64,000 nucleotides of DNA from a virus, in the IMG/VR virus record IMGVR_UViG_3300045988_135716, positions 1 through 64,000 of that record; one strand, given 5' to 3'. A program made the position numbers and the translations under genes. The notes beneath the pieces were generated by a model that saw nothing but the letters and a program-made list of their open reading frames with translations, had not been told where the DNA came from and ran no database searches. Shown here piece by piece: positions 25,291-62,603 of the stretch (the first letter of the stretch is position 1; the number at the start of each line of letters is the position of its first letter).

Positions 25291-25379
25291 CGTACAGGGT
25301 AGGATTTGAACCCACGGATGGTTTTATCCATCAAATGCTTTCAAGGCATTCGCATTAAACCTGACTCTGCCACCTGTAC
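25291..25379 (-). tRNA. tRNA-Ser (anticodon UGA), class II with long variable arm
   Basis: Folded by hand: acceptor GTACAGG/CCTGTAC, D arm GCA/TGC, anticodon stem AATGC/GCATT with loop CTTGAAA, variable stem GATGG/CCATC, T arm GTGGG-TTCAAAT-CCTAC. Confidence 0.85.
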
Positions 25380-26020: not shown

Positions 26021-26098
26021 TTGATATATTAGGCTTTGAACCTAAATCTACCAAATCCATACGGAAACAATCGCTCTAACCAATTGAGCTATATATCA
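26021..26098 (-). tRNA. tRNA-like element with non-foldable anticodon arm
   Basis: Canonical acceptor TGATATA/TATATCA, D arm GCTC-AATTGGTTA-GAGC and T arm TTAGG-TTCAAAG-CCTAA. The 26 nt between the D and T arms (normal is about 23) give no 5-bp stem with a 7-nt loop. Confidence 0.5.
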
Positions 26099-27016
26099 TT
26101 ATTATTATTATAAATGCTGAGATTACACATTTATACAGAAGTTCTTTTAGAACATTATGAGTTCTTTCCGTATCCACTATATACCTTACGCATATATAGT
26201 AAACTTCCACAACCGCCTTTTTGAAAGAGTGGCATTTCTCTTTTACTACATGACTACTCTGATTTTATTATTCCATTAACACCGCCGTGCTATAAATCTC
26301 CGCTAAGAGAACTGTGCAAACTCGATCAAACATCTCAAAGTCTTGCGAGACTTATTAATGTCCATATTATACTCTTATAAGTACTATGGAATTAGGTTGT
26401 TTTCACCATGTAGAGGTGTAGACTTTCGCTTTGTATGTAATATTTAAGTATATAAATATTCTTTTACCTTTTAAACGTAAACGGCATTCCACCATTCCCG
26501 ATAATATTATTCTACTTTTTTACAACAAGTTTAAGTCCAAGTTACAGAAGATGTGCTACACCAGACGCTTTCATTCCTTTTGAGAACAAAAATACATCAC
26601 ACCTTCATGTCTTTCAGTTATAATCCCTACTAAACGTTCATATAAGTAATATACTCATATAAATGGATAATGCACTCGATTAATAATTTCTCGCACTATT
26701 TATCCTCCTGATTCACCATTATATGCATATAAGTTTGCATGAGCTATCTGATTTGCGGTCAAAAAGTAATTCTCAGCGGTCGCCCCTAAATCACTTTATC
26801 GCTCCTTATAATACATACTATTTCCGCATAGACTCAATTGCGAAACGCAACCTTTTGAGTTACTGGTATGTCAGTTTTGCTTGAATTGACTATATTTCTA
26901 TAGCGATAGGGTGTAAATCTATCTTTATATACCTCACGATATACTATCTGTGTCAAGCCACATAATCGTAACAATAACATTGTAAAATTTATGATGCGTC
27001 ATAAAACGCATCAAAT
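26099..27016. ncRNA. ORF-free, hairpin-rich segment between tRNA genes; candidate large structured RNA
   Basis: No ORF of 60 aa or more in any frame over about 0.9 kb. Several short stems (aagtct-tgcg-agactt, ttgcg-aaa-cgcaa, gcactg/cagtgc nearby). Flanked by tRNA genes. Strand undetermined. Confidence 0.45.
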
Positions 27017-27087
27017 AGCGGATATTGGATTTGCACCAATGTTCTCTTGGTTATGAGCCAAGCGAGTTAACTACTTCTCTAATCCGC
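27017..27087 (-). tRNA. tRNA-Met-type (anticodon CAU), slightly aberrant
   Basis: Anticodon stem CTTGG/CCAAG with loop CTCATAA; acceptor GCGGAT/ATCCGC; T arm ATTGG-TGCAAAT-CCAAT. The T loop reads TGC rather than TTC, and there is a 7:66 mismatch. Confidence 0.6.
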
Positions 27088-27244
27088 ATTGTTATATTTT
27101 TAATCAACGGAAGCACTGTAGCGAAAGGGGAAGAATCAGTGCAACCGCCGATTATATACCAATTAGTCGCCAAACTAATCATAACTGTATTTCTATCGAG
27201 ATACTCTCAGATATTCATAAGAAACTAAGATTTCTCCTTTTTAA

Positions 27245-27729: not shown

Positions 27730-30537
27730 CTAAATCGACATTCTTTTTTTTCTACGATATTCTCTATCAATTCTACGCTTTTCTTTTAATTGACATTCTT
27801 CGCATCGACAGGATTTAGTATCTTTTATATCAACCTCAAACCATTCTCCACAATCAACGCACTGAATAAATTTAGTTTTCTTTATAGGAATATTAGACTC
27901 AAGATTTTTTACAACGTATTGACCATAACAAAACCAAAATAATTGTTTTGATCTTTTGTTATTTCCATATAAATATTTAACAAGCATGTCTGTTAATTCT
28001 TCATTTGAATAGCCAAACTTTGAAAATTCATCTCGAATTTGACAAGCAACATATCTCAGATTATCAATATATTCATCTTTCATATTGATTTTGTACCTGT
28101 ACTTTTTATTTAATTCATCATATAAATCAGATACTTCTTTTTTACAAGTTGTATTAACATTGCTCATCATTTTATGATAATCAAGTTTTCCAAGTTGTAA
28201 TCCCCTTGTGTTAATTGCCTTATTTGGAATTACGCTATAAAGTTTATTTACAAAACTTCCATTTCTTTTTTCTACTTGAGTCTTATTTTCATCCTCACTA
28301 ACTTTTTTATCCTTTGCATATTCAAAAAATGCAGGTAATTTTTTATTAGTAAATTCCTTAATCTGTGCAGATATTTCTTTTGGAAACTCTGGTTTATATA
28401 GTGTCTTGGCGAAGTCAATAACAAAATTATTCTGACAACATAATCGCTTTACACAATTAGTAGCATGTTGTTTCTCTTCATCTGTACCGTCAATGAAAAT
28501 GTCACTGTTCCAAATCTTTGAAATATTATTACTATAAATGCCGATATTTCCACCAGTAAATGCAGCATTTAATCCTGCATAAATATTTTTATTATTCAAC
28601 TCGACTGGTTTTGCTTTTTGCATATTATAATATAATGGAACAATACCATTCATATTTCTTTCAGCAATACGAATAAAATCTTGATCAGCTACAACAAGAG
28701 ATTTATCACCGTCAACATCAAATTGAAGAATCTTACTAATTAAATCATATGTACTGGTATAAACGGCATTAGTTGTAAACCATTTTCTGATTTTTTCAAC
28801 TCTTTCTCCGTATACTTTATTGGCAACATTAAATCGTATAGCATGTTCTTTATATAAATGTGGACTTCTAAGACAATCTAATTTATCATAATATTTGAAT
28901 AACCAACAAAATACTTCTTTATCTGCTAATAATCCTGTTGGGGTTTCAATGTGTCCAAACCAATATTCACATGCGGCATAAAAATCAGGAAGTAAAAATG
29001 TATATTTCCCATTAATGTCTAATCGACCACTACGATATTGTTTGAGAAGACTATTTTTTACTTCTCTAATAACATCTTTTGCATATGTATCATTTAATAA
29101 CGCAGGATATATTTTAACCGCTTTTTGAAACGGTGTCATATTATCGTTATATGGGGTAATTCCTAATACTTCCATCATTGTTTTTTCTGATGTACATATA
29201 TTAGTAATCTTTTCGATTGACTTAGATGCTAAAAGTAATATTTCTTCATCCGATATATTGGTAAGAGTTTGCAACATCTGATAGTTGATTTTTGCATTTT
29301 TAACTCTATCTTCTTCTGTATTACATCTACCAGCTTGACAATTATATTTTTTAAAGTATGTTTTGTATTCATCCCATGAATCATAGAACTTGTACATTTT
29401 AAACTGACTCTTTGTAAATATAATTTGAATATTTTCTTCGATGACATCGTGTTCTTTACCATATATATCTTTGATGATAGGAGAGTGGCTGTTTACTTTT
29501 ATAAATTTTACAAAATCAAATACACCTAACAATCCTTTTATCCATGGCGCACGAAACATTGTATTTTTATCCATAAGACACGGTAAGATCATTCCAGCTC
29601 CATCAGTGTGTGGAATTGGCACTAAACCAGTTTTTCTTTCAATTGAATAATTTGTCTCGTCTATAAAATCAAATGTACCAGGAACATTAGTTTCAAAATC
29701 GTCAATTACAATACATCTATCAATATCAAAATCAACCCATTGATCTGTTGCTGAATTTGCTAATGCCATGTAAGCCAAATGTTTATTAACATTATTACCA
29801 CCTTTAGAATTGATTTTATCAATCGTTAATCCACACATTACGGTTTTTTCTACTTGATTCCATACAGATTCTTTTATAAAAACTGCTTTCTTTTTACGAA
29901 TTTGTCCTGCTGATGATGTAAAATATCTATATTTTTCACCTTTATACATAAAACCATAAAAAGATAAATCTTTAAAAACATCGAAATAGTAAACCTGTAC
30001 TACGATAAGAGCATCTGTAAGTTCATCTTTTTTAATTCCAATAGTTCTGGTAAGAGAAGATTCAAAAACTGAAATAACATTTGTATCTTTCAATTCTTCT
30101 TGTCTTAAATATCGCAATGGTATATCTTTTTTTATTTCATTTTCTTCATTATATTTTGCAGTGTTCTCTTTTTCATAAACCTTAGTTGCAAGGATTTTTA
30201 ACAATTTCTCTTTTGACTCATTAGCTTTCTTTCTTTTATGCGCAATTAAACGATTCCAATAATTTAGTTGATTTCTGAGCTGATTAAATTGATCCATATC
30301 AGTTATGGATGTTTTTTCTATATCACTCAAAATATATTCAATATCTTTTTTAATCAACTCATATGTATCATCAGAACATCCAATAGTATTAAAATCTTTT
30401 TTAATTCCATCAAGTTTATTACTAATATAGTTTCGTTCTCTTCGATATTTACAATTCATTTCGTGAAGATACTTTTCTGAATTACTATAAAAATGACCAG
30501 TATCTACACTATACATATTAATTTGCGTGTCTAACAT
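27730..30537 (-). CDS. single-subunit two-barrel RNA polymerase, YonO / RNAi-RdRP-like
   Basis: FDVDGD (DxDGD metal-binding loop, nt 28705-28719) about 45 aa after CLRSPHLYKEH. Upstream is MFRAPWIKGLLGV (F-R-x-P-x-x-KG, nt 29533-29556). C-terminal CxxC...CxxC ribbon. Confidence 0.65.
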   Translation of the reverse strand: MLDTQINMYSVDTGHFYSNSEKYLHEMNCKYRRERNYISNKLDGIKKDFNTIGCSDDTYELIKKDIEYILSDIEKTSITDMDQFNQLRNQLNYWNRLIAHKRKKANESKEKLLKILATKVYEKENTAKYNEENEIKKDIPLRYLRQEELKDTNVISVFESSLTRTIGIKKDELTDALIVVQVYYFDVFKDLSFYGFMYKGEKYRYFTSSAGQIRKKKAVFIKESVWNQVEKTVMCGLTIDKINSKGGNNVNKHLAYMALANSATDQWVDFDIDRCIVIDDFETNVPGTFDFIDETNYSIERKTGLVPIPHTDGAGMILPCLMDKNTMFRAPWIKGLLGVFDFVKFIKVNSHSPIIKDIYGKEHDVIEENIQIIFTKSQFKMYKFYDSWDEYKTYFKKYNCQAGRCNTEEDRVKNAKINYQMLQTLTNISDEEILLLASKSIEKITNICTSEKTMMEVLGITPYNDNMTPFQKAVKIYPALLNDTYAKDVIREVKNSLLKQYRSGRLDINGKYTFLLPDFYAACEYWFGHIETPTGLLADKEVFCWLFKYYDKLDCLRSPHLYKEHAIRFNVANKVYGERVEKIRKWFTTNAVYTSTYDLISKILQFDVDGDKSLVVADQDFIRIAERNMNGIVPLYYNMQKAKPVELNNKNIYAGLNAAFTGGNIGIYSNNISKIWNSDIFIDGTDEEKQHATNCVKRLCCQNNFVIDFAKTLYKPEFPKEISAQIKEFTNKKLPAFFEYAKDKKVSEDENKTQVEKRNGSFVNKLYSVIPNKAINTRGLQLGKLDYHKMMSNVNTTCKKEVSDLYDELNKKYRYKINMKDEYIDNLRYVACQIRDEFSKFGYSNEELTDMLVKYLYGNNKRSKQLFWFCYGQYVVKNLESNIPIKKTKFIQCVDCGEWFEVDIKDTKSCRCEECQLKEKRRIDREYRRKKRMSI

Positions 30538-30778: not shown

Positions 30779-31012
30779 TTAATCTTCCTCCATAATTCCA
30801 ATCTCATAATTTAACCATTCAGCTAAGTCTTTCTTTCCAGTAATACATTCCCAATGAGCATAATCACCATCGTTCCTTATATATTCTTCACCGTTATAAA
30901 TTCCATTACCGCAAATAGAGCAGTAGTGGGTTGCATTCTCAGGAATATAATCAGGACACGTTGATGGACAATAACTCATGTGGCAACCTGCGCACACCAT
31001 TAAGCAACACAT
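30779..31012 (-). CDS. small Cys-rich Zn-binding-like protein
   Basis: CAGCHMSYCPSTC...CSICG pattern. Confidence 0.5.
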   Translation of the reverse strand: MCCLMVCAGCHMSYCPSTCPDYIPENATHYCSICGNGIYNGEEYIRNDGDYAHWECITGKKDLAEWLNYEIGIMEED

Positions 31013-31443
31013 CCTTTCTCTAATTTTTCATATGAATAACCATCATTTGTTGTATAATATATTTCTCTAATTCCAAGATCTTTTATCGCTTGCATACAGC
31101 TTGCACAAGGTCTAGCCATTCCACACACAATATCTTTTCTAGTGCGGTATATGTACAACTTCACCTTTGAAAAATTAATGTTCAAATGTTTCAGTTGATT
31201 TATGCAATTAATTTCTGCGTGGAGTTTTGGTAGAAGTGATTCAGAATTATCAAAATCGTTGTCATCTATTCTATATCGGTTATAATACTTCTGGGTTGGG
31301 TGGGTTTTATTTGTATTACAACCAATTCCGATAATGCGATTCTGATAAACAGCGATACATCCAATATGTACCTTTGGAAAATCAGACACCTGTGCAATCT
31401 GCTTGGCTTTTGAGAAATATTTGTAATCCATTTTTCTCATCAT
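31000..31443 (-). CDS. dCMP deaminase (cytidine/deoxycytidylate deaminase family)
   Basis: HAEINCI and PCASC zinc-ligand motifs, 147 aa. Confidence 0.85.
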   Translation of the reverse strand: MMRKMDYKYFSKAKQIAQVSDFPKVHIGCIAVYQNRIIGIGCNTNKTHPTQKYYNRYRIDDNDFDNSESLLPKLHAEINCINQLKHLNINFSKVKLYIYRTRKDIVCGMARPCASCMQAIKDLGIREIYYTTNDGYSYEKLEKGCVA

Positions 31444-34352: not shown

Positions 34353-35009
34353 TATCTGAAATTCTCTATATAGATTCTTATAGAGATCTTTCAGTTGGAT
34401 TTCAAAATATTCTGCTAATGCTTGATATTTAGGGAACATTTTTGATTGCCAATATGTAAATCTCTGTTTCTTTGATAATGCTTTTGGTATATTATTGTTT
34501 TCCAATGTAGATACTCTTGATTCTAATGAATCAAATTTACTATCAATCTTTTGTACAAGACTGGTTACACTCTGCGCTAAAGCTTGAATATCATCATTTC
34601 TTGCTTGTAATTTAGCAGTAGCAATTTTTAATCCTTGCTCACAAGCGATAAAATAATCTCTTGCTTGCTCATGTTTCTCAGTATTACCTGTCATTGAAAG
34701 TTTCTTTGCAAATTCTGATGTGAGTTTATAATCTGTCTTTGGTTTTGGATTTTTTGGTTTATCTCGTTCTTCTTGCATGATGAACGGGAAATAATCTTCA
34801 TTTTCAGTTACAAATTTATTATTTACGATATTTTTCTTACACCATCTAGCAAAATTACTTGGATTCAATTCTAAAAAAGCATATAATTTACTTGCTGTTG
34901 TCATTCCATCTTTATCAATCTGCAATGCAATCTCAATAGGTGTCTTATCAGATGTTGATGGTGTGATAGTAGTTGTTGTATTATTTTTGTCGTCTTTTAA
35001 TTTTCTCAT
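34332..35009 (-). CDS. AntA/AntB-type phage antirepressor-like protein
   Basis: ASKLYAFLELNPSNFARWCKKNI...EDYF...DYKLTSEFAKKLSM...ARDYFI pattern. The last 8 residues (QIYILILS) look like out-of-frame junk. Confidence 0.55.
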   Translation of the reverse strand: MRKLKDDKNNTTTTITPSTSDKTPIEIALQIDKDGMTTASKLYAFLELNPSNFARWCKKNIVNNKFVTENEDYFPFIMQEERDKPKNPKPKTDYKLTSEFAKKLSMTGNTEKHEQARDYFIACEQGLKIATAKLQARNDDIQALAQSVTSLVQKIDSKFDSLESRVSTLENNNIPKALSKKQRFTYWQSKMFPKYQALAEYFEIQLKDLYKNLYREFQIYILILS

Positions 35010-35028
35010 AGTAATTGATCTCCTTTAT

Positions 35029-35544
35029 TTATTTGTGAAATTTCTTATTTGTGTTGTTTCTATCGGCAATAAGTTTTAAGCAGCTCATTTCTTTCTGATT
35101 ATTACTTCTCTGTTTAGTAATAATATTTTGTGTTGTATATGAATTAAATATCTTCTTACAAATCTTTGCTTTATATAAATTCTCTATATCAGATTTATAA
35201 TTTTGTACTGTGTATTCTGGTGAATATGGATCATATGAAAATTGACTCTTTTCTGAATTTAATATTAGCTTTAGGAAATAACATAACTCTCTGATTGATT
35301 TACCGTTTCCTCTTGAGAGATGGTAGTATGATTGTGGTGTTATTTCTGATATGTATATTCTCTTATCGGCAAGATATTTATTTGTTATGGATTTGATTTT
35401 GTTTAATGTTGCCGATGAAAAATTCCATTTGTATATTGTAAGTGGTTGAAATATATTTGAAGTAATTAATAAGATTGATAGGATATAATCTTGTGCCATT
35501 AAAATATTTAGTCAAATATTCATTACTGTTAATTTTATTATTCA
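35029..35544 (-). CDS. hypothetical protein, probably split by a frameshift
   Basis: A strong SD plus ATG at 35544 opens a 55-codon frame ending at 35377. The 156-aa track ORF (35029..35499) overlaps in another frame and has a poor N-terminus. Confidence 0.35.
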
Positions 35545-35649
35545 TTTGTGTAATCTCCTTTTTATTTTAATGATTTTTGATAATTATTATTTCTCTCTTT
35601 GCGGATTGAAATATTTAGTTTGCATGTTACTGGTTGTAGATTCTCTATT

Positions 35650-36600
35650 TGAAACAAAGATGATCTATTTTTGCTGGTGAAAATTTGAGGTTAGGTGGGA
35701 TATGAGAGTAGTGATTTTTGTGAATGTAAAAGTACCCCCACTTATCTTTCTATCTAATATTCTCTATTTGAGATTCTGCTTGAGATATTTGTTGTAGATT
35801 ATATGATGTAGATTTAATTTGAAAATTGTAACGTGCAAATGCTAAGTTGCTCAAGTGATGGTATTTGTGATGTTTATTCTAAGTTGTACATTAGAATAGT
35901 GAGCATAGAATTGATTTTAGAGTTGTAGATGATATGTGATTGATATGAAATTGAAATGATTGTATCTTGAAGTGTAACTTTAGCATTTCAAGATTTTTTA
36001 TAATGTATTTTTGAGTAAATTTTTGTGATTAGAATTGTGTGAAAGTTTGACACAATTTAGAGAGGTATTTCCTGATGATGTGAGATTATGGACTTCGAGA
36101 TAGGTGTTTTGGGTGATAATTTTGATTGAGATGGGAGAGTGATGTGTACTTTTAATAGGAAATGATTGCTGCGTTTTAGGTAGATGTGGCAAGGGAATAT
36201 GGGATATTGCAGGATGATAAAATTAAATTAAGTTTATGATCTTGAGATATATAATTAGGTATCACTTCGAGAAGACTTCGTAAATTGTTAGATTTTGCAA
36301 GGGATATTGTGATTTGGAGTAGGTAATTTTGGGTGAAAATTGGTGATTTAGAATTGTCAGAAAATTTATTTTGCGTTGATATGCAAGGGTGCGGTCGAAC
36401 TCAGTCTCGAACTCATTTTGATTATTTTGGTGAATTGTGTGTAGGTTTAGTGCAATTTGTGAGGTGGTATGAGGGTGAGAAATTTTTTGTTGCTGGTGGT
36501 GAGTGTAGAGTGATGGATTACCAGTTTTGATTTTTGGACGAGTAGTGTGAGTTGAACTCATCAGTGGATATGACAATATCATATTAAAATTACAAATGTA
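35650..36600. other. C-depleted (G+T-rich on plus strand) non-coding arm
   Basis: Hand count: 17 C in 360 nt (35881-36240). Only composition-artefact ORFs. Confidence 0.8.
35964..35999 (+). terminator. terminator-like hairpin inside the C-depleted arm
   Basis: atcttgaa-N15-ttcaagat followed by T5-6 on the plus strand. Confidence 0.4.
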
Positions 36601-37019
36601 AACTATCCCCGTCCTACTGGTATACATTATAAAACAGGATCATAAAATCGGATTAAAATAGTGTAATATGCAATTCCCGAAAAGCCTTGCTATTGTTGAA
36701 TAAAACTAACTTTTGCACTTTTGTGGGAAGTGTAAAAAAGTCAAGTTTTGTTATTATTTGACATTTTTACTCCGGTCAAAAACATGGGGGTGGTACAGGA
36801 TATAAAAGTTAGTATGATAAAACTAAAATTTTATCGGGTATTCTGGATATGAGATCACGGGACGGTAGACTTTAATTGTATAGACAATTATAAATATTAT
36901 TATAGTATACTCGAAAAAAGGAAAAGTGAGAAAATGAAAGAAAACAAGAGAAAATGAGCGAAAAAACGTGAATAAATGACTATCGGTCAATTCTGTTCGT
37001 TATGTTGGATTTCCAACAA

Positions 37020-38160
37020 AAAATTTGATTACAAGATTGTAACACAAAATCATAACACAAACTTATATCACCACTTGCACCACAAAAACGTAACAAAATA
37101 GACTAATACACTCCACTTTATACCCAAAAACAGCGGTAAAAATGGGATAGCGCACCACTACAAAATAATACATAAATGTAACACAAAAATTGTATCACAC
37201 TCATATAACACAAAAATCTGGACGAAATAAAACCATCTGGACGCACAACAGTAGACTCTACCAGATAGCAAGATCACACCCCAAACCATCCCCCAAAATA
37301 CAATATAAAATCATATTAACATAACACAATATACTCATACAATAACATCAAATAACCATACATAAACTCACAATAATATACAATATAATATACATTATAT
37401 ATCACATAATACATCACATATAACTTACAATATACATCTATCTATATTCAACTATATACCTACAATATACCACATAATATTACTATTATAATACCTCTGA
37501 TATATCATACAATATACTACAATACATACTCATACAATCAACCATAATGCCACATAATATAACGCATAATATACTCACACTAACCACACCACATTATACA
37601 ATCTGCATCCTATAAAACCATTGCAAATACTACATTCTAACACCATCCAGGGATTAAAATATAACATCAGATCACGATAAAATTATCTTAAAACAGGACG
37701 CAAAACACCACATAAAAACAGATAAAATTATACTCCAAACAAGATAAAAACCACACGCCAAACAGATAAAAATACCTCACATTTCAATCATAAATCAGAC
37801 AAAATACTCACACTTTACCGCAATATTTTACCCATTCGCACACAAAAAACAACGCTATTCTATACAAAATTTTGCATAAAAATACATCAATCAAACTGTA
37901 TAAATATACAATATTCTTGCATAAAATAGCGCACATTTTGACGTAAAAATACACCTAAAAACATATTAAAATGATACAAAAATATCATCATGCTGCACGT
38001 TTCAAACAGTCCAGATATACGATTGTAAATATATCATACTTACAAAATGACCTTGTAAAACGCTCTATAAACGACTTTAAGCGCATAACCCTATATAATT
38101 ATCATATCTAATATAAAAGCCCTTAAAACGTCAAATACACGCTTATAAGGCTATCTGTAC
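37020..38160. other. G-depleted (A+C-rich on plus strand) non-coding arm with several short direct-repeat families
   Basis: Hand count: about 75 G in 1140 nt and zero G in 37321-37440. No ORFs. Confidence 0.8.
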
Positions 38161-38212
38161 ATTTTGAACATGATAACAATAGGTTGTTTGTGTTACTTCC
38201 TATTATATGTGG

Positions 38213-38692
38213 CTAATACAACTGTTTTATCTTTGACAACATAGTATCTATATAACTATCTAATTCATTGTAATTTCTTCCATACCATAATAAATGTGCA
38301 ACAAAATCTATTTCTATATCTGCACATCTTCCGTTATTTAAGGCGTTGTATATATCTTCTTTATTGACTCTATATCTTCCATTTGATAACTTTTGATTAT
38401 ACTGTATATTATTATATCTAAGCATATCTAAACATCTTGACACGTTACCAGATACAATAAAAAATTTATATATTATATCTGTTATGCTGTCAGTGTCAGT
38501 TATAAATAAACATTTCCTTATTATATGGCGTATATACTCTATAAATAAATCATCATATAAATAATGTATATTTCCATTATCAAACAACTTTAAAGCATCA
38601 TAATAGTTTATGTCTCTTAAATGTTCTATGTGCTCTTTTGTTATTTTATCGTCTATCATATATTTATTTATAACCTTTTCTGTCAAGATCAT
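38213..38692 (-). CDS. hypothetical protein downstream of the RHH repressor
   Basis: Overlaps the RHH gene's 3' end, same strand. Confidence 0.5.
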   Translation of the reverse strand: MILTEKVINKYMIDDKITKEHIEHLRDINYYDALKLFDNGNIHYLYDDLFIEYIRHIIRKCLFITDTDSITDIIYKFFIVSGNVSRCLDMLRYNNIQYNQKLSNGRYRVNKEDIYNALNNGRCADIEIDFVAHLLWYGRNYNELDSYIDTMLSKIKQLY

Positions 38693-38852
38693 CCTGTATT
38701 AGCTTCTTGATATATACGCTCATTGGTATGTTATTATCTTTTGCATACCGTTTCATTCTTGCACATTCTTCCGTTTCTTCTGGTGTATATTTAAGTTTTA
38801 CAACTGTACATCTATCATTATAATCTTTTTGTGATTTTGGGCTATATGCCAT
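38664..38852 (-). CDS. ribbon-helix-helix (CopG/Arc-like) repressor candidate
   Basis: 62 aa with CTVVKLKYTPEE (beta strand) and IPMSVYIKKLIQDDL (helix B). Divergent from the operator-bearing early promoter. Confidence 0.55.
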   Translation of the reverse strand: MAYSPKSQKDYNDRCTVVKLKYTPEETEECARMKRYAKDNNIPMSVYIKKLIQDDLDRKGYK

Positions 38853-38985
38853 AATTCTTACACCTTTCTTTATTTATTATATGTAATAATTCTCTTTTTC
38901 TTTTTGGTGTAAGAGTAGTATTACATATTAACATTATAGCTTTATCCTGTCAACTTTTCTATTGACATTTGTGTATATTGTACTA

Positions 38986-39075
38986 ATAGGGTACCCTATG
39001 CAAATATGTAAATTATACACAATTCACAAACATAAAAAATCATAGGGTAACCTATTGACTAATAGGGTACCCTAT
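38986..39075. promoter_or_regulatory. three 14-bp palindromic operators: O1 38986-38999, O2 39042-39055, O3 39062-39075
   Basis: ATAGGGTACCCTAT occurs perfectly twice and once as ATAGGGTAACCTAT. Confidence 0.75.
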
Positions 39076-39083
39076 GGTATAGT
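39055..39083 (+). promoter_or_regulatory. early rightward promoter with operator O3 in the spacer
   Basis: TTGACT, 17-nt spacer, TATAGT. Confidence 0.6.
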
Positions 39084-39158
39084 AATACCATCAACAGAGG
39101 GGCAGAGATAAAATCAAAGTTCTAAAGTTGATAAAACTAAATAAAGGAGGTGACTCCA

Positions 39159-39266
39159 ATGACATATCCAATCGGATATCGTGGTCACTGTTTTCTTGCA
39201 ATAGTCAATGGCAAGTTGATGCAATTTGCAAGTGATACAGAATACTACGAATACATAACGGATTAA
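39159..39266 (+). CDS. 35-aa micro-ORF
   Basis: AAAGGAGGTGA SD 7 nt before the ATG; MTYPIGYRGHCFLAIVNGKLMQFASDTEYYEYITD. Confidence 0.45.
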   Translation: MTYPIGYRGHCFLAIVNGKLMQFASDTEYYEYITD

Positions 39267-40046
39267 TCATTGATGAGGGCATAGCCACAAGGCTTATAAG
39301 TCCCTCAAAATCACTTCCTTAAATGGTATTATACCATATTTAGTTTTTAACTACAAGTTAATCTAATAAGTCCCAAACAAGATTGAAACGGGCACACACT
39401 GAACCTTGCAGTTGAATAAAGGGTTGACTACTCGACAGCGAAAACTGTTATATGAGAGTCCTGGGTATCTGCCTCGAAAGAGATATTAGCGCATTCTGAA
39501 TTGCTGAAAGTATAGTAACAAAATCAGACGTTTGTAGAAAAGGTTTTTAACGTGAAAAAACTTGACCGTCAATGTGATCAACAGGGAATCACACAAAAAT
39601 AATAAGTTAGGGACGGGATAATAAATCAGAATTTAGTTTTACATAAAAGCAACTTATTAACAATAACATACTTGTAATAAGTGGCAAGTTACTTTTTTAC
39701 GGAATATCTAAAGCAACAAAAAATGGAGTCAAAACCATTTCAAAAAAAGAATGTGATGACCAAACTAAATAGTGGACGGTTTGTCTGGTATGAGTACCAC
39801 TTTAAAAGATAGGAAATCAGTCAAAAGCATGAGACAGCTTAATCATTCAAAAAATACGGTTGTCCGTATCCGATCAAAAAACGGGGAAAGATGCAAAACA
39901 AAGACCTAAGATTTGTTTAGACTGAAATAGTTTACTTGTTATCTATCAATGATACATAAAAATAAGTCGTTATCATAAAACGTTAAAAGCGTTCTGATTT
40001 ACGAAAAATCATTGCAAGCGGTTAATCATTAATCACTTGCTTTTTT
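39267..40046 (+). ncRNA. about 780-nt untranslated RNA segment ending at a strong intrinsic terminator
   Basis: No ORF of 60 aa or more in either strand. Several hairpins (tgaggg...ccctca, atacgg-ttgt-ccgtat, acttatta...taataagt). Terminator at 40014-40046. Confidence 0.5.
40014..40046 (+). terminator. intrinsic terminator
   Basis: 12-bp stem with one mismatch (gcaagcggttaa/ttaatcacttgc) followed by T6. Confidence 0.75.
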
Positions 40047-40224
40047 GTTTTACTTAGGTTGCAAGGCATTATCAACAAGCAAAGTTATTTGAAAGACGGG
40101 CAAAAGCGTAAGACCCGTGGCGGTGAGTAGTAGTCAAGTATAAATAATTTCTAATGTTGAATTATAATGGCTTGCAAAAATGAGAACAAAAAGAGAATAC
40201 ATAAACATACAGGAGGGAAATACG

Positions 40225-40551
40225 ATGACAACATATGTAGACGTAATTGCAAGAAAAGATACTATCACAATTGATGGTTATACATCAAACAAAACAGAAC
40301 GTGGCATTATTAAAGATGTTGCAAGAGTAGTTTCAAAATACGATCAGAGTGAAGCCAACACTCTTCTTGATTACTTAAAAATGGGGTTGAACAAGTACAA
40401 TACTCCATTTGCTAAAGCATCTGAAAGTGAAGGCGGTTATTTCTTTGAATATGAAGAAGTGCCATGTGCTACAAGATACAATGAAGAAACTGACGAGATG
40501 AAATATAAAGAAGGTTATTACAACTACTTTTGTATTAGAATTGTTAAATAA
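40225..40551 (+). CDS. hypothetical early protein
   Basis: AGGAGGG SD before the ATG at 40225. Confidence 0.55.
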   Translation: MTTYVDVIARKDTITIDGYTSNKTERGIIKDVARVVSKYDQSEANTLLDYLKMGLNKYNTPFAKASESEGGYFFEYEEVPCATRYNEETDEMKYKEGYYNYFCIRIVK

Positions 40552-40568
40552 ACAGGAGGTCAAAAGCT

Positions 40569-40772
40569 ATGCCAAAAGTTAAAATTACAGCTCATACATA
40601 TGTATGTGAGTTGCCCGAAACAATTCAGTCACAGATTTTCCAGGAGTGTGAAGCTACATTTAAAAGCCTTGCATTTCCTGTAGATATCAATGAGCAACTT
40701 GAAAACGTAAAAGGTTGCAAGATGTGTGATCTTGAAGATACGATAAACGTACAGAAATATTACACAAAATGA
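40569..40772 (+). CDS. hypothetical early protein
   Basis: SD AGGAGG upstream. Confidence 0.55.
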   Translation: MPKVKITAHTYVCELPETIQSQIFQECEATFKSLAFPVDINEQLENVKGCKMCDLEDTINVQKYYTK

Positions 40773-40798
40773 AATCCATGTTTTAAGGAGGTTTTACA

Positions 40799-41008
40799 AT
40801 GAAAGAATGGCATATTATCCATGAATGTGATACAGAGAACGGAATACCAACGCAATGGGCAAAAGAGATTGACCATCCTAAATATGGTCGGTATGTATGG
40901 ATTGAACTTACATATAATAACACTTATGACGTAGTTGCAAATGATACAGTTTTAAAGAATTGTAAATCACTTGCAAGTGCGAAACGTTGGGTATCAACAA
41001 ATTTATAG
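40799..41008 (+). CDS. hypothetical early protein
   Basis: SD AAGGAGG upstream. Confidence 0.55.
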   Translation: MKEWHIIHECDTENGIPTQWAKEIDHPKYGRYVWIELTYNNTYDVVANDTVLKNCKSLASAKRWVSTNL

Positions 41009-60313: not shown

Positions 60314-61363
60314 ATGTTACAGATTTTAGGCAAAACAGATAAGTTAAGAGATGAATGGACGGTTAGAAAGATTGTAAATAATTATAAAAGTGGTGTTAGC
60401 GTATTTGATAATGCGGTTCAGAGAGGACTTGTCTGGAAGAATGATAAGAAATCAAGACTTATTCGTTCTACTATTCTTAATAGACCAATTCCTCCTATTT
60501 ACGCTTCAAAACATGATGAGATTTATAATAATCTGGATGGAAAACAGAGAAGTTATACATATGTGGAGTTCCTTAATGATGAATTTTCGTTAGAAGGACT
60601 TGATCCCGTCACTGTTAAGAATACAGAAACAGGTGAAATTGAGGATGTGGAATTGAATGGTAAGTGTTTTTCAGAGTTGCCGGAGGAATTACAGAACGCT
60701 ATCACGGATGCAACTTTAACTGTCATTATAATTAACAATGTGACAGAAGATGAAGAATGTGAGATTTTTTATGACATTAATAATGGACAGCCATTAAATG
60801 CTATTACCATTGCAAGAGCAACAGCAAAATCACGTAAAGATATTACTCAGTTGGGACTGCATAAATTATTCCAGAATGCTTTAACTAAGAAAGCATTAGA
60901 GAAATATACAAATGAGGATATTGTTGTTAAGAGTTGGGCTATTTTGCATCAGGAAAATCCATCTCTGGAATCAAAGAATATTAAAAAATTAATGTCAGAA
61001 GTAGAATTAACAGGGGATGATATGATTCAACTTGAAAAATGCTTCGATAGAGTTCTGGCTACATATAACGCCATTGATGATAGAAAGATAGCAAAAAGGA
61101 TTTTAACCAGAACACATATGATTAGTATTATGCGAGTTGTATGGAAATCTATTGAATGTGGGAAATCAGAGGAAGAATTTGCAAATTGGTTTACAAAGTT
61201 TTATTGTGGTAAACAATCTCCTACAAAAGACGAAGTGTATAACAGTTTATGTAGAGCAGGAACTAATAGAACATCTGCGGTATGTAAGAGACTTGAAATT
61301 CTTGAGAATAACTATAATAAATTTTTCAACATATCATCAACAAGTGAAAAGGAGAACGATTAA
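60314..61363 (+). CDS. DUF262 (ParB/Srx-fold) protein, paralogous in architecture to 15238..16230
   Basis: AVQRGLVW...LIRSTILNRPIPPIY...LDGKQRSYT...NNGQPL motif series. Confidence 0.75.
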   Translation: MLQILGKTDKLRDEWTVRKIVNNYKSGVSVFDNAVQRGLVWKNDKKSRLIRSTILNRPIPPIYASKHDEIYNNLDGKQRSYTYVEFLNDEFSLEGLDPVTVKNTETGEIEDVELNGKCFSELPEELQNAITDATLTVIIINNVTEDEECEIFYDINNGQPLNAITIARATAKSRKDITQLGLHKLFQNALTKKALEKYTNEDIVVKSWAILHQENPSLESKNIKKLMSEVELTGDDMIQLEKCFDRVLATYNAIDDRKIAKRILTRTHMISIMRVVWKSIECGKSEEEFANWFTKFYCGKQSPTKDEVYNSLCRAGTNRTSAVCKRLEILENNYNKFFNISSTSEKEND

Positions 61364-61365
61364 AT

Positions 61366-61551
61366 ATGGCGAAAGACAGAGAAACACCTTGCCTGTACTA
61401 TATCTGTATGGGTGAATGTAAGAAAGGTAGAGATGCAAACCATTGGCATTATTGCCAGAAATGTGATAAGTACAGACCAAAGTTAAGAGTGCGACATCTT
61501 AACAAGAAGAAAGAGAAATTAGAGAAGATAAGGAAGAATGAAAAATATTAG
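61366..61551 (+). CDS. small basic Zn-ribbon protein
   Basis: CLYYICMGEC...CQKC followed by a K/R-rich tail. Confidence 0.5.
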   Translation: MAKDRETPCLYYICMGECKKGRDANHWHYCQKCDKYRPKLRVRHLNKKKEKLEKIRKNEKY

Positions 61552-61563
61552 GAGGTGGGGGTT

Positions 61564-62388
61564 ATGCCAACTTTAGCAATCCAACAGCCGTGTTATATCA
61601 ATCAAAAACAGAAAGCAACGATATACAACTTCCCAAAACAGAAAACATTACGGCGTGGGAAGTCAACAGAGATGGAATGCTTGTATACTAAGGATGAAAT
61701 TTTATCTGTATACAATATGTTTAAAACAGATGTTGATAATGCAACTACTGTTAATAAAGAAAAGAACGCTATGCGAAATCTTACAATGTTCATATGTGCG
61801 ATCAATATTGGATTACGTGGTGGGGATTTTTGCAAACTCACATGGAAAGATGTATATGAAGATGGATGGAGAATTAAAAAGTCACAGAAGTTTGTTCCAG
61901 AAAAAACAGAGCGTAGAGATAGATGTGGAAATGTAATTAAAAGAAAATATGTCAAGTTAAGATATGACAGTGATTTTAAAATGGCTATTCAGAATTGGCA
62001 TAAGTGGTTAGAAGATCATAATGAAACACCTGAGTTGACTGATTATATCTTTTCTTCTAATAAAGGTGAACATATTGGAGAAATGACATGGTATAGAACT
62101 GTTGAGAGGAATAGAATAAAAGCAGGTATTAAACAGTCTATTGGTACTCATGGACTTCGTAAGACTTTTGGACATAGCTATTATTTAGCAGCACCAGATA
62201 AACAACAAGCTCTTATACAGCTTATGACTATTTTTGGACATGCTGATATGCGTATTACTCTAAGATATATTTGTATTACCGATGAAGAAATATTTAAAAA
62301 CCAGGAAAGAATGTGCATTTTCTCGAATGAAGAAGAAACACCAGAAGATTATTTATGTCCACAAGATGATCCAGATATGATAGAATAG
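61564..62388 (+). CDS. tyrosine recombinase
   Basis: GLRGGDF (Arg), HGLRKTFGH (H-x-x-R) and FGHADMRITLRY (His...Tyr). SD GGAGGTG before ATG 61564. Confidence 0.8.
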   Translation: MPTLAIQQPCYINQKQKATIYNFPKQKTLRRGKSTEMECLYTKDEILSVYNMFKTDVDNATTVNKEKNAMRNLTMFICAINIGLRGGDFCKLTWKDVYEDGWRIKKSQKFVPEKTERRDRCGNVIKRKYVKLRYDSDFKMAIQNWHKWLEDHNETPELTDYIFSSNKGEHIGEMTWYRTVERNRIKAGIKQSIGTHGLRKTFGHSYYLAAPDKQQALIQLMTIFGHADMRITLRYICITDEEIFKNQERMCIFSNEEETPEDYLCPQDDPDMIE

Positions 62389-62446
62389 GAGTAATAAGTG
62401 AGATTAACAGAGAAGTATATTATAGAAAGATTTTGGAGGTATATAG

Positions 62447-62603
62447 ATGATGGATAGCTTTATGAATAAAACCAGTTGAGAAAGAATTTACATATGATGA
62501 TATTGTGAATACTTATAATAGAAGTGGAGACAAGAAAGACGTTGCCAAAAGATTTTGTATAAGTGTTGGCGAAGTGACTAAGATTTTGAAGAAGAATAAA
62601 TAG
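62447..62603 (+). pseudogene. small HTH protein interrupted at an A4 run
   Basis: MMDSFMNKTS-stop. Dropping one A in aatAAAAcc joins it to [43 protein letters not shown] (an HTH). Confidence 0.45.

What the first reader, a model, noticed from the sequence alone, without database searches (positions are those of the whole stretch)
35560..38210. 2.6-kb ORF-free zone with mirror-image strand composition (C-depleted arm, hinge, G-depleted arm)
This zone sits at the divergence point of the two gene arms.

- Left arm: the plus strand is first almost C-free and G+T-rich. I counted 17 C in 360 nt at 35881-36240.
- Hinge: ordinary composition over about 36600-37020.
- Right arm: the plus strand then becomes almost G-free and A+C-rich. 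I counted zero G in 37321-37440 and about 75 G in 1140 nt at 37021-38160.

Read outward from the hinge, both arms are A/C-rich. Read inward, both are G/T-rich. A strand lacking G or C cannot form G-C pairs with itself, so both the DNA and any transcript here would be nearly structure-free.

The only ORFs (35998..36192, 36262..36627, 36333..36530) are low-complexity composition artefacts. A skew this extreme and this sharply bounded is not ordinary replication skew.

Hypotheses (inference):
1. An origin or iteron field.
2. Convergent transcription giving C-less, G-rich, R-loop-prone RNA. The RHH operon at 38852-38213 does read leftward into the right arm, and a plus-strand terminator-like hairpin lies at 35964-35999.
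3. Physical genome ends or a packaging region collapsed by the assembly.
4. Long unstructured A/C-rich decoy RNAs.
Basis: partly seen in the sequence, partly recalled or inferred. Interest (0 to 1): 0.85.

Follow-up and report, generated by a model that had tools for sequence, protein, structure and literature searches.

The report
Skewed DNA arms flanking phage genome ends
This 2.6-kb gene-free stretch of a large gut Clostridia phage is most likely the place where the genome is cut and packaged, and its central block is flanked by two unusually long arms of mirror-image strand composition whose purpose is still unknown.

Summary
Every base count was reproduced. The zone is the strongest mirror-image GC-skew feature in the 64-kb window (z about 6). 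It holds no coding signal, no Rfam RNA and no called gene.

About 30 independently assembled relatives, phages of roughly 170-180 kb, keep the same architecture. This holds even where the right arm no longer aligns, so composition is conserved rather than sequence.

The phage is related to SPbeta and c-st (TerL 57% identical to c-st, plus a YonO-like RNA polymerase). In SPbeta, an unbiased scan puts the strongest skew "butterfly" of 100 kb exactly on the experimentally mapped 251-bp pac/opening block. That block lies in the syntenic intergenic region. The 404-bp terminal repeat of c-st shows the same polarity more weakly. The repeat of phiCD211 does not show it.

Best reading (about 0.55): the hinge is the packaging site and short terminal-repeat block, collapsed by assembly. 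The arms would then be subterminal DNA whose 3'-ending strand is G/T-rich at both virion ends.

Distant relatives carry three perfect DnaA boxes at the hinge/right-arm junction. The least stable duplex in the window lies next to that position, so an adjacent replication origin is not excluded.

The R-loop, decoy-RNA, iteron, polar-motif and restriction-avoidance readings were not supported. The function of the arms remains an inference.

The parts
35700..36560 (.). Left arm. The plus strand is G/T-rich and C-depleted (C 7%, G 25%, T 39%).
   Evidence: Composition. The arm is conserved in all relatives. Identity to relatives is 0.86-0.94, at or above the third-codon-position identity of the flanking genes (0.75-0.88). 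No coding periodicity.
35724..35739 (+). Motif copy 1, ATGTAAAAGTACCCCC, at the outer edge of the left arm. It contains TACCCCCACT, which is also found 20 nt inside the c-st terminal repeat.
   Evidence: The pattern ATGTAAA-N1-3-TA[CT]CCCC occurs only twice in the 64 kb, both times in the zone. It occurs once in 100 kb of SPbeta, inside the pac block. The c-st TDR sequence is printed. The pattern was defined after seeing the match, so it is suggestive only (blastn E 0.42).
35964..35999 (+). Terminator-like hairpin followed by a T-run, reading rightward.
   Evidence: Found by the scan. Conserved in the distant relatives too, with G-U-compatible changes.
36092..36099 (+). ACTTCGAG, a conserved C-containing motif. 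Further copies lie at 36264-36271 (+) and 36406-36413 (-, one mismatch).
   Evidence: These are the only exact copies in the 64 kb. They are invariant across all lineages.
36561..37020 (.). Hinge of ordinary composition. Candidate packaging (pac) site and short direct terminal-repeat block. The boundaries are approximate.
   Evidence: The butterfly scan centres here. The analogous SPbeta 251-bp pac block (64531-64781) and the c-st 404-bp TDR are likewise unskewed blocks between skewed flanks. The left half is highly conserved and the right half is a swapped, variable module.
36596..36610 (+). Motif copy 2, ATGTAAACTATCCCC, at the boundary between left arm and hinge. The SPbeta copy sits at the same relative position, about 35 nt inside its pac block.
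36734..36768 (.). Invariant palindrome AAAAAAGTCAA-N13-TTGACATTTTT, inside the invariant block of about 36690-36772.
   Evidence: Identical in all 13 aligned lineages. An exact 22-mer from it retrieves only this phage family in IMG/VR, plus two Clostridia MAG contigs.
36874..36889 (.). Palindrome AATTGTATAGACAATT, a candidate protein-binding site.
   Evidence: Conserved in all lineages; it reads TTGTATATACAA in the distant group.
37004..37017 (.). Hairpin or palindrome GTTGGAtttCCAAC at the boundary between hinge and right arm.
   Evidence: Both arms change together: GTTGCAtttGCAAC in L023-25 and AGGTGtaattGCACCT in L017. In L023-25 it is followed directly by three TTATCCACA boxes.
37040..37243 (+). 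Lineage-specific box cluster: TAACACAAA at 37040, 37053, 37179 and 37206, and ATCTGGACG at 37216 and 37235. It occupies the position of the DnaA boxes of the distant lineage.
   Evidence: Other lineages carry TT(A/G)TTCATA six times, ATAACCACA twice, or perfect DnaA boxes three times at the same place.
37273..37498 (.). G-free alternating purine-pyrimidine (A-Y)n core. It is the least stable duplex of the window and a candidate unwinding or flexible element.
   Evidence: 226-nt G-free run. Nearest-neighbour stability is -1.03 kcal/mol per step against -1.198 +/- 0.045, the lowest of the 64 kb. Purine-pyrimidine alternation is 0.74 against 0.478 +/- 0.045, the highest in the window, and is kept in all relatives.
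37021..38160 (.). Right arm. The plus strand is A/C-rich and G-depleted (G 7%, C 23%, A 46%), with C phased at about 11.25 bp.
   Evidence: Composition. The sequence is not alignable to the distant relatives, yet the composition is kept. The periodicity has power 15-48 times the median in every relative.
38213..38852 (-). Flanking two-ORF operon (62 aa and 159 aa) that reads towards the right arm. It is not part of the element, and some relatives carry other genes here.
   Evidence: ORFs. No Pfam or PHROG hits. No intrinsic terminator was found downstream. MT835469.1 has different genes at this position.

Best explanation
**What it is.** The zone is the genome-end and packaging region of a large SPbeta/c-st-like Clostridia phage, seen here in its joined (circular or concatemer) form.

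**How it would work.**
- The hinge (about 36.56-37.0 kb) carries the terminase recognition and cutting site. It is probably the short direct terminal repeat present at both ends of virion DNA.
- The two arms are then the DNA immediately inside each end.
- Because their composition is mirrored, the strand that ends 3' at either terminus is G/T-rich and C-poor. The 5'-ending strand is A/C-rich and G-poor.
- By analogy with SPbeta, packaging would start at the hinge/right-arm boundary and run leftwards. Hinge plus right arm would then be packaged last and injected first, ahead of the early promoters at 38.9-39.1 kb.

**Shown.**
- The architecture, and its conservation by composition rather than by sequence.
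- Its coincidence with the experimentally mapped terminal block in SPbeta, and more weakly in c-st.

**Inferred.**
- That the ends of this phage lie in the hinge.
- That the arms act in end processing: control of resection or recombination of the 3' tails during circularisation or concatemer formation, protection of the entering end, or both.

**Possible second function.** Initiator-type boxes and an unwinding-prone core at the hinge/right-arm junction suggest that a replication origin may sit beside the packaging site.
For: **Relationship to SPbeta and c-st.**
- TerL (10375-12147) is 57% identical to c-st TerL and 28% identical to SPbeta YonF.
- The 935-aa ORF at 27730-30537 is YonO-like.
- The order TerL, YonO, antirepressor, zone, early arm matches SPbeta and c-st.

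**SPbeta.**
- Its genome opening point and packaging start lie between yonP and yonR, with a sharply bounded block of about 250 bp (bioRxiv 10.1101/2021.11.22.469490; block sequence). This block is NC_001884 64531-64781.
- GC skew is +0.58 on its left (C 7%), -0.01 within it, and -0.42 on its right (G 9%).
- An unbiased scan of 100 kb gives its single highest butterfly score (1.02, z about 5) with the gap starting at 64526.

**c-st.** The annotated 404-bp terminal repeat has GC skew +0.33 on its left, -0.05 within, and -0.35 on its right. It ranks third in the genome scan, behind two coding-strand switches.

**This window.** The butterfly score is 1.23 (z about 6), centred on the hinge.

**Conservation.**
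- 27 IMG/VR loci and further ENA/Logan loci keep the architecture.
- The right arm keeps its composition without alignable sequence.
- New polymorphisms run against the skew. With outgroup polarisation in the left arm: G>A 53 against A>G 33, and T>C 20 against C>T 6.

**Motifs.**
- A short motif is shared with the SPbeta pac block at the same relative position.
- TACCCCCACT is shared with the start of the c-st repeat.

**Neighbouring genes.** Early and anti-defence genes such as ArdA lie just beyond the right arm in relatives. This fits an end that enters the host first.
Against: - There are no read-terminus or coverage data for this phage.
- The hinge has no significant overall similarity to the SPbeta pac block or to the c-st repeat. 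The shared motif was defined post hoc (blastn E 0.42).
- The experimentally determined 378-bp terminal repeat of phiCD211 (PMC5557969) shows no mirror skew in CP011970.1, assuming the coordinates are equivalent. The association is therefore not general.
- Ends of fragmentary contigs do not cluster at the hinge. They fall at 36474, 36810, 36921, 37393, 37874/37876, about 37998, 38445, 39098, 39136 and 40093.
- The proposed roles of the arms are weakly supported:
  - The G/T-rich strand of the left arm folds about as well as background when modelled as ssDNA.
  - No enriched oriented motif of the Chi type was found.
Confidence: 0.55

Rival explanations
1. The zone is primarily a replication origin, serving lytic theta replication or plasmid-prophage replication. 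Initiator boxes at the hinge/right-arm junction would nucleate opening of the adjacent G-free (A-Y)n core. The A/C-rich strands, which run 5' to 3' outwards, would be the unstructured tracks on which the two helicases are loaded. This can coexist with the packaging reading.
For: - L023, L024 and L025 carry three perfect TTATCCACA boxes plus one box with a single mismatch, all in one orientation within 60-75 bp. About 0.14 perfect boxes are expected per 12-kb locus.
- Every lineage has its own 9-mer repeats at that same spot.
- SPbeta has TTATCCACT 13 nt to the right of its pac block.
- The least stable duplex of the 64 kb, 37294-37494, lies next to the boxes.
- The gene arms point away from this neighbourhood, as expected at an origin in Firmicutes. 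The c-st arms diverge and converge about half a genome apart.
- The outward A/C-rich strands are nearly structure-free.
Against: - The window lineage has no DnaA box within one mismatch, nor any match to TTWTNCACA, anywhere in the zone.
- DnaA-box-like matches in the arms are not enriched over shuffles.
- By eye, no array of DnaA-trio type follows the boxes (criteria from PMC8287927).
- No initiator gene is adjacent.
- The polarity of the skew is that expected at a terminus, not at an origin.
- DnaA boxes also occur in the non-origin T5 injection-stop region (bioRxiv 10.1101/866236).
- Origins do not need kilobase-long arms.
Confidence: 0.25
2. The arms are transcription elements. One version is that the outward-read, C-rich, G-poor, unstructured RNA acts as kilobase-long Rho-loading sites that insulate the two gene arms. 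The other is that long non-coding RNAs (A/C-rich decoys, or G/U-rich R-loop formers) are the functional products.
For: - Outward RNA has a C:G ratio above 3 and an MFE of -3 to -9 kcal/mol per 200 nt.
- The 38213-38852 operon reads into the right arm with no intrinsic terminator detected.
- A conserved plus-strand terminator-like hairpin lies at 35964-35999.
- A promoter-like pair lies at 35780-35825 in many relatives.
Against: - No sigma-A-type promoter conserved across lineages was found in the hinge or arms. Overall promoter-like counts equal the shuffle expectation.
- No Rfam family matches.
- The conserved left arm and hinge do not fold better than shuffles on either strand (z -0.86 and -0.75).
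- G content of about 25% with 39-46% U makes for poor R-loop-forming RNA.
- An intrinsic terminator would insulate the arms in about 40 nt.
Confidence: 0.1
3. The zone is a nucleoprotein scaffold, such as a partition centromere of a plasmid prophage, in which a protein filament wraps the phased right arm.
For: - C is phased coherently at about 11.25 bp over roughly 900 bp in all relatives.
- c-st and phiCD211 place their partition genes (TubZ/TubR, ParM-like) next to their terminal repeats.
- Conserved palindromes lie in the hinge.
Against: - No partition NTPase or recognisable centromere-binding protein lies nearby.
- There are no iterons.
- Known centromeres are far shorter.
- This does not explain the left arm or the mirror polarity.
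Confidence: 0.05
4. The skew is a by-product without function. Repeated single-strandedness of the 3' tails next to the ends would lead to deamination (C to T, A to G) in DNA that is free to drift. A phage-encoded deaminase might contribute.
For: - The composition shifts (less C and A, more T and G on the inward strand) match the signature of ssDNA deamination.
- The skew fades outwards in the right arm.
- The per-site A>G rate on the G/T-rich strand exceeds T>C in both arms.
- The right arm evolves at about the third-codon-position rate.
- A deaminase ORF lies at 31000-31443.
Against: - Polymorphism flux runs against the skew.
- C>T on the exposed strand is not elevated.
- The left arm is more conserved than the third codon positions of its neighbours.
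- The phasing, the (A-Y)n core and the conserved motifs indicate constraint.
- An assembly artefact is excluded by more than 30 independent assemblies.
Confidence: 0.05

Closest known systems
SPbeta-like pac site / genome opening block (yonP-yonR intergenic region; Fink & Zahler 1982; Kohm et al., bioRxiv 10.1101/2021.11.22.469490)
   Same: - It occupies the same syntenic position, after the YonO arm and before the early arm.
- It is an unskewed block (251 bp) between a G-rich, C-poor left flank and a G-poor right flank of the same polarity.
- It shares a short ATGTAAA..TACCCCC motif near the left edge of the block.
- A near-consensus DnaA box lies just to the right of the block.
   Different: - The SPbeta flanks are about 340 and 180 bp, against about 860 and 1140 bp here. 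They are purine-skewed rather than keto-skewed.
- The block itself shows no significant sequence similarity to the hinge.
- The skewed flanks are not mentioned in the sections of that paper I read.
- Termini are mapped for SPbeta and not for this phage.
Clostridium botulinum phage c-st 404-bp terminal direct repeat (NC_007581 annotation)
   Same: - It is the closest TerL relative (57% identity).
- It is also a large, AT-rich phage of Clostridia.
- Its repeat sits in a gene-free stretch with a positive then negative GC-skew pattern (+0.33, -0.05, -0.35).
- TACCCCCACT lies near the physical end.
   Different: - The skew is modest (about 1 sd of genome windows) and short.
- The repeat lies about 6.5 kb from the gene-arm switch.
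- There is no keto-skew zone anywhere in its 186 kb.
T5 injection-stop (iss) region: a 1.66-kb untranslated, repeat-rich region with eight DnaA boxes in the first-entering terminal repeat (bioRxiv 10.1101/866236)
   Same: It is a kilobase-scale non-coding region near the entering genome end. It is more conserved than the neighbouring genes and carries DnaA boxes without being the origin.
   Different: - T5 iss is built of direct and inverted repeats and palindromes; no strand-composition arms are described.
- The host and phage family are unrelated.
- DnaA boxes occur only in one sub-lineage here.
Bacterial oriC / basal unwinding system (DnaA boxes, DnaA-trios and an AT-rich unwinding element; PMC8287927)
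   Same: A cluster of same-orientation consensus DnaA boxes in L023-25, followed by an easily melted tract.
   Different: - There are no boxes in the window lineage.
- No trio array was recognised.
- The arms are twenty times longer than an unwinding element.
- The skew polarity is opposite to that around an origin.
Telomere G-strand polarity and Chi orientation (analogy only)
   Same: If the ends lie in the hinge, the G/T-rich strand runs 5' to 3' towards both ends. That is the geometry of telomeric G-strands and of Chi sites that are active against nucleases entering at an end.
   Different: - There are no tandem repeats.
- No enriched oriented oligomer was found.
- No telomere-type enzymes were identified.
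- This is purely a geometric resemblance recalled from general knowledge.

Membership tests
SPbeta/c-st-type packaging and terminal-repeat region | The phage belongs to the SPbeta/c-st group (TerL and YonO-type RNA polymerase). | tested here: met
   TerL is 57% identical to c-st and 28% to SPbeta YonF. The ORF at 27730-30537 matches c-st CST179/YonO (E 1e-19) and Pfam RdRP.
SPbeta/c-st-type packaging and terminal-repeat region | The region lies in the gene-free stretch between the YonO/structural arm and the early arm. | tested here: met
   Gene order, compared with SPbeta and c-st.
SPbeta/c-st-type packaging and terminal-repeat region | An unskewed block of a few hundred bp flanked by G>C on the left and C>G on the right. 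| tested here: met
   The window scores 1.23 at the hinge. SPbeta gives the top score of 100 kb exactly at its pac block. The c-st repeat ranks third. The pattern is not seen at the phiCD211 repeat.
SPbeta/c-st-type packaging and terminal-repeat region | Sequence similarity of the block to a known pac block or terminal repeat. | tested here: not met
   The local alignment score is below the shuffle mean. There is no significant hit to the c-st repeat. Only a short motif, chosen post hoc, is shared.
SPbeta/c-st-type packaging and terminal-repeat region | Physical termini, or a doubled-coverage block, in virion DNA. | not testable with these tools
   No reads are available. Contig ends do not cluster.
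DnaA-dependent origin (oriC-like) | A cluster of consensus DnaA boxes. | tested here: not met
   None lies within one mismatch in the zone of the window or of 24 relatives. The cluster is present (three perfect boxes plus one) only in L023, L024 and L025.
DnaA-dependent origin (oriC-like) | An adjacent AT-rich unwinding element. | tested here: met
   37294-37494 is the least stable 200-bp duplex of the 64 kb.
DnaA-dependent origin (oriC-like) | A DnaA-trio array within about 13 bp of the boxes. | tested here: inconclusive
   No phased trio pattern was seen by eye downstream of the boxes in L023/L024. The criteria come from PMC8287927. No formal scorer was run.
Iteron-type phage or plasmid origin | Tandem or phased direct repeats bound by a cognate initiator encoded nearby. 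| tested here: inconclusive
   Only short lineage-specific 9-mers occur, such as TAACACAAA four times. There are no strong tandem arrays and no initiator gene was recognised.
R-loop-forming G-rich transcribed region | G-clustered, G-rich non-template strand downstream of a promoter. | tested here: not met
   G is 23-25% and U 39-46% in the inward RNA. No conserved inward promoter was found.
Rho-dependent terminator (rut region) | C-rich, G-poor, unstructured untranslated RNA. | tested here: met
   Outward RNA in both arms has a C:G ratio above 3 and very weak folding. Dependence on Rho and the existence of the transcripts cannot be tested here.
Known structured RNA families (Rfam 15) | A covariance-model match. 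| tested here: not met
   No hit in 35000-41000 at E up to 1. The only hits in the window are GOLLD and three tRNAs, all elsewhere.
Partition centromere (ParR/TubR/ParB type) | An iteron array with an adjacent partition NTPase and adaptor genes. | tested here: not met
   There are no iterons and no partition gene was detected in the flanks. Only the 11.25-bp phasing is reminiscent.

The most novel reading that the evidence does not exclude
The kilobase arms would be a previously undescribed kind of cis-acting genome-end element. They would be subterminal DNA selected for strand composition rather than sequence, so that the 3'-ending strand at both virion ends is G/T-rich and C-poor, a telomere-like or Chi-like polarity. 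Such an element could steer resection, RecA or annealase loading, and circularisation. It could also shield the first-entering end, with DnaA or other host proteins recruited at the junction in some lineages. SPbeta and c-st would carry miniature versions of it.
Probability: 0.25. Interest if true: 0.75.

Novelty: new variant of a known kind. Interest (0 to 1): 0.6.

Why it matters
**If the hinge is the terminal repeat.** A simple composition scan could then locate physical genome ends and packaging sites in metagenome-assembled SPbeta/c-st-like phages, for which no virion DNA exists. In SPbeta, the scan found the mapped pac block without any prior information.

**What the arms imply.** About 2 kb of non-coding DNA is kept by composition, not sequence, in a widespread family of human-gut phages. 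More than 560 homologues of the adjacent gene were found in public data. This points to a strand-polar process at phage genome ends that has not been described. That process could be resection control, end protection, entry or initiation, and it is directly testable in SPbeta, a genetic model.

**If the arms are only a mutational scar.** They would still record which strand is single-stranded at phage ends in nature.

Tried and rejected
- **Iterons or tandem repeats in the arms.** Only weak, low-copy families were found.
- **Enriched oriented k-mers (Chi-, KOPS- or iteron-like).** Nothing is shared between the arms or between lineages. The top k-mers differ by lineage.
- **Arms as arrays of degenerate DnaA boxes.** Matches are not above the shuffle expectation.
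- **Hidden coding.** There is no 3-nt periodicity and no gene was called in relatives.
- **Structured RNA.** No Rfam hit. Folding z-scores are about -0.8 on both strands.
- **Restriction-site avoidance.** G/C-containing palindromic 4-mers occur at background density: 16.3 and 14.9 per kb against 17.2 +/- 5.5. The 6-mers are only mildly low.
- **Arms as one extended unwinding element.** Only 37273-37498 is unusually unstable.
- **A comparable zone in c-st or SPbeta.** Neither genome has a keto-skew zone. Only the GC-skew miniature at their terminal blocks is present.
- **Similarity of the hinge to the c-st repeat or the SPbeta pac block.** None.
- **Contig-end clustering as a proxy for termini.** No cluster was seen.
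- **Synteny of early genes with c-st, to place the terminus.** Only five ORFs match.
- **phiCD211 as a third test case.** There is no mirror skew at its 378-bp repeat.
- **Conserved sigma-A promoters inside the zone.** None is shared by all lineages.


Full report
**1.

- 17 C in 35881-36240.
- No G in 37321-37440.
- 75 G in 37021-38160.

Composition of the three segments:

| Segment | GC skew | Keto skew | Base content |
|---|---|---|---|
| Left arm 35700-36560 | +0.56 | +0.29 | C 7%, G 25%, T 39% |
| Hinge 36561-37020 | +0.20 | -0.03 | close to neutral |
| Right arm 37021-38160 | -0.55 | -0.37 | G 7%, C 23%, A 46% |

- Outside the zone, 300-nt windows have keto skew sd 0.077 and never exceed 0.29.
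- The G-free run is 226 nt (37273-37498). The next longest in the window is 63 nt.
- An unbiased scan (GC skew of a left block minus that of a right block, across a 450-nt gap) peaks at 1.23 with the gap starting at 36601. The next best place scores 0.29, and the sd is 0.19.

The zone is non-coding by several tests:
- There is no 3-nt periodicity, while control genes show it strongly.
- Rfam finds nothing at E up to 1.
- Gene callers left the equivalent 2.7 kb empty in five relatives.

Two details needed correction:
- Only the outward-read A/C-rich RNA is structure-free, at -3 to -9 kcal/mol per 200 nt against -30 +/- 8. The inward-read G/U-rich RNA folds better than average through G-U pairs.
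- The real divergent promoter and operator region is at 38925-39083, beyond the two minus-strand ORFs at 38213-38852.

**2. It is a conserved feature, not an artefact**

The gene adjacent to the left arm retrieved 27 IMG/VR loci, mostly from contigs of 95-177 kb. All show the plus, neutral, minus pattern. Further ENA and Logan contigs do the same.

- Most relatives are 77-94% identical across the zone.
- Three of them (L023-L025) align only over 35937-36768, at 72%. Their right arm does not align at all, yet it keeps the A/C-rich composition.
- The left arm and left hinge are at least as conserved (0.86-0.94) as third codon positions of the flanking genes (0.75-0.88). The right half of the hinge is a swapped, indel-rich module. 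The right arm evolves at about the third-position rate.

Polymorphisms run against the skew:
- With the minor allele taken as derived, the left arm shows G>A 106 against A>G 41 and T>C 41 against C>T 19. The right arm shows A>G 65 against G>A 22.
- With outgroup polarisation, the left arm shows G>A 53 against A>G 33 and T>C 20 against C>T 6.
- This argues that present-day mutation bias does not create the skew, and that selection or history maintains it. The counts are modest, and per-site A>G rates give a mixed signal.

**3. What kind of phage this is**

- TerL (10375-12147) is 57% identical to that of Clostridium botulinum phage c-st, and about 28% identical to SPbeta YonF.
- The 935-aa ORF at 27730-30537 is a YonO-like single-chain RNA polymerase.
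- An HU-like gene and a YonG-like gene also match c-st.
- Two MAG contigs that carry the invariant hinge 22-mer are binned as Lachnoclostridium and Eubacteriales.
- The order TerL, YonO, antirepressor, zone, early arm parallels SPbeta and c-st.

**4. What the arms are not**

- They contain no iterons or strong tandem repeats.
- No k-mer is enriched in both arms or across lineages. The top k-mers differ by lineage, which suggests local slippage under a compositional constraint.
- DnaA-box-like matches are not above shuffles.
- G/C-containing palindromes are not depleted at the 4-mer level.
- The conserved left part does not fold better than shuffles.
- No sigma-A promoter conserved across lineages lies inside the zone.

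**5. What the zone does contain**

In the left arm:
- A conserved terminator-like hairpin at 35964-35999.
- The C-containing motif ACTTCGAG at 36092 and 36264, with an inverted one-mismatch copy at 36406. These are the only exact copies in the 64 kb, and they are invariant in all lineages.

In the hinge:
- An invariant block at about 36690-36772 with the palindrome AAAAAAGTCAA-N13-TTGACATTTTT.
- The palindrome AATTGTATAGACAATT at 36874-36889.
- A hairpin at 37004-37017 whose two arms change together between lineages.

Just to the right of that hairpin, each lineage has its own short repeats:
- TAACACAAA four times and ATCTGGACG twice in the window.
- TT(A/G)TTCATA six times in a second class.
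- ATAACCACA twice in a third class.
- Three perfect DnaA boxes TTATCCACA plus one box with a single mismatch in L023-25.

In the right arm:
- The G-free core at 37273-37498 follows these repeats. It is the least stable duplex of the window and its most strongly alternating purine-pyrimidine tract.
- Cytosines are phased at about 11.25 bp coherently over roughly 900 bp. This is reproduced in every relative, at about 11.0 bp in the distant ones.
- I have no tested explanation for the phasing.

**6. The link to genome ends**

*SPbeta.* Kohm et al. (bioRxiv 10.1101/2021.11.22.469490) confirmed earlier restriction mapping. They report that the genome opening point and packaging start of SPbeta-like phages lie between yonP and yonR, with a sharply bounded block of about 250 bp. 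Packaging starts at its position 251 and runs counter-clockwise.
- That block is NC_001884 64531-64781. It lies in the intergenic region syntenic with the zone.
- Its left flank (64190-64530) has GC skew +0.58 with 7% C. The block itself has -0.01. Its right flank has -0.42 with 9% G.
- A genome-wide butterfly scan of 100 kb of SPbeta, run with no prior information, gives its single highest score (1.02, z about 5) with the gap starting at 64526.

*c-st.* The annotated 404-bp terminal direct repeat has flanks of +0.33 and -0.35 around a neutral block. It ranks third in the scan, behind two coding-strand switches.

*Shared motifs.*
- The motif ATGTAAA-N1-3-TA[CT]CCCC occurs twice in the window, both times in the zone, at 35724 and 36596. 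It is conserved in relatives.
- It occurs once in SPbeta, about 35 nt inside the pac block. That matches the position of the 36596 copy relative to the hinge.
- The c-st repeat begins with a stretch that shares TACCCCCACT with 35733-35742.

*Caveats.*
- The motif was defined after seeing the match (blastn E 0.42).
- Overall, the hinge is not alignable to either known block.
- The experimentally determined 378-bp repeat of phiCD211 (PMC5557969) shows no mirror skew, assuming equivalent coordinates.
- Ends of fragmentary contigs do not cluster.

**7. Most likely mechanism**

I conclude, at about 0.55, that the zone is the joined form of the genome ends. The hinge would hold the terminase site and probably equals the short terminal repeat. 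That gives an estimated length of 0.36-0.46 kb, against 251 bp in SPbeta, 404 bp in c-st and 378 bp in phiCD211. The arms would be the subterminal DNA.

- Geometry then dictates that the 3'-ending strand at both virion ends is G/T-rich and C-poor.
- By analogy with SPbeta, and using the general rule that the last DNA packaged is the first ejected (an inference), the hinge and right arm would enter the cell first. They would be followed by the 38213-38852 operon and the early promoters.
- Only processes that are polar with respect to an end can read a mirror-symmetric strand property. Packaging and ejection run in one direction through both arms, so they are poor candidates.
- Polar candidates include 5'-to-3' resection, nuclease entry, recombinase loading, and gap filling after annealing of the repeats.
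- I therefore favour a role in end processing or protection, but this step is inference.
  - The right arm is weakly structured as ssDNA on both strands.
  - The G/T-rich strand of the left arm folds about as well as background.
  - No Chi-like oligomer stands out.

**8. Rivals**

- *Replication origin beside or instead of the packaging site, about 0.25 and not exclusive.* It is supported by the DnaA boxes of L023-25, the near-consensus box 13 nt to the right of the SPbeta block, the unstable core and the gene orientation. It is weakened by the absence of boxes in the window lineage, by the wrong skew polarity for an origin, and by the precedent of DnaA boxes in the non-origin T5 injection-stop region.
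- *Transcription-based readings (Rho-loading insulators, long non-coding RNAs, R-loops), about 0.1.*
- *A centromere-like scaffold, about 0.05.*
- *A purely mutational scar, about 0.05.*
- An assembly artefact is excluded.

**9. Novelty**

Packaging sites and short terminal repeats of SPbeta/c-st-like phages are known. Kilobase arms of mirror-image strand composition flanking them are not described in the sections of the SPbeta paper I read, nor annotated in the c-st record. They are kept by composition rather than sequence and carry helical phasing. The same signature marks the mapped SPbeta pac block.

I file this as a new variant of a known kind. There is a 0.25 chance that the arms represent a new class of genome-end element.

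Noticed in passing
window 26114-26607 (-), with tRNAs at 25291-25379, 26021-26098 and 27016-27088: A full-length GOLLD RNA (RF02032, 172 bits, E 1e-46) lies among three tRNA genes (Ser-tga, Arg-ccg, Met) in the late-gene arm of this gut Clostridia phage.
   Followed up: no
window 38925-39083: A switch-like control region. Divergent sigma-A-type promoters (minus strand TTGACA-17-TAATAT; plus strand TTGACT-17-TATAGT with an extended TG) are interleaved with three copies of the palindrome TAGGGTACCCTA. A small ORF at 39160-39266 follows, with a strong Shine-Dalgarno sequence.
   Followed up: partly
window 39050-39700 (+): A second ORF-poor stretch with higher GC (0.34-0.38). Its plus-strand RNA folds well beyond shuffles (z -3.4), but it has no Rfam match.
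   Followed up: partly
window 31000-31443 (-): A 147-aa zinc deaminase scores above the curated cut-offs of both dCMP_cyt_deam_1 (52 bits) and the MafB19-like nucleic-acid deaminase family (32.7 against 27). It is conserved about 4 kb from the zone in relatives. It may bear on the C-depleted strands.
   Followed up: no
window 35029-35545 (-): The gene next to the left arm is one protein of about 207 aa in most relatives. In the window it is split into a 55-aa ORF with a Shine-Dalgarno sequence (35378-35545) and a 156-aa ORF (35029-35499). The same split form recurs in independent Logan contigs, so it is not a one-off error. The family has more than 560 homologues and no known domain.
   Followed up: partly
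window 27730-30537 (-): A 935-aa YonO-like single-chain RNA polymerase (Pfam RdRP 46.8 bits; tblastn to c-st CST179, E 1e-19).
   Followed up: partly
window 37858-37881; loci L089 and L090: Two contigs from different sequencing runs end within 2 nt of each other (window 37874 and 37876), at the palindrome CAAAATTTTG inside the right arm. This could be an assembly break or something physical.
   Followed up: no
L084 151-375 (phage T7, just inside the left 160-bp terminal repeat): T7 shows C>G skew (-0.49 and -0.35) immediately inside its left terminal repeat. This is the same polarity as the right arm here. The T7 right end is not mirrored.
   Followed up: no
L092 3913-4827 (phiCDIF1296T) and c-st 176734-178074: Large Clostridia phage-plasmids place their partition genes (ParM-like; TubZ/TubR) next to the terminal repeat. 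No such gene was found beside the zone in the window.
   Followed up: no
window 60314-63153: The early arm carries a GmrSD_N-domain protein, a tyrosine integrase and a Tpt1/KptA RNA 2'-phosphotransferase. Relatives also carry ArdA and IS elements near the zone.
   Followed up: no
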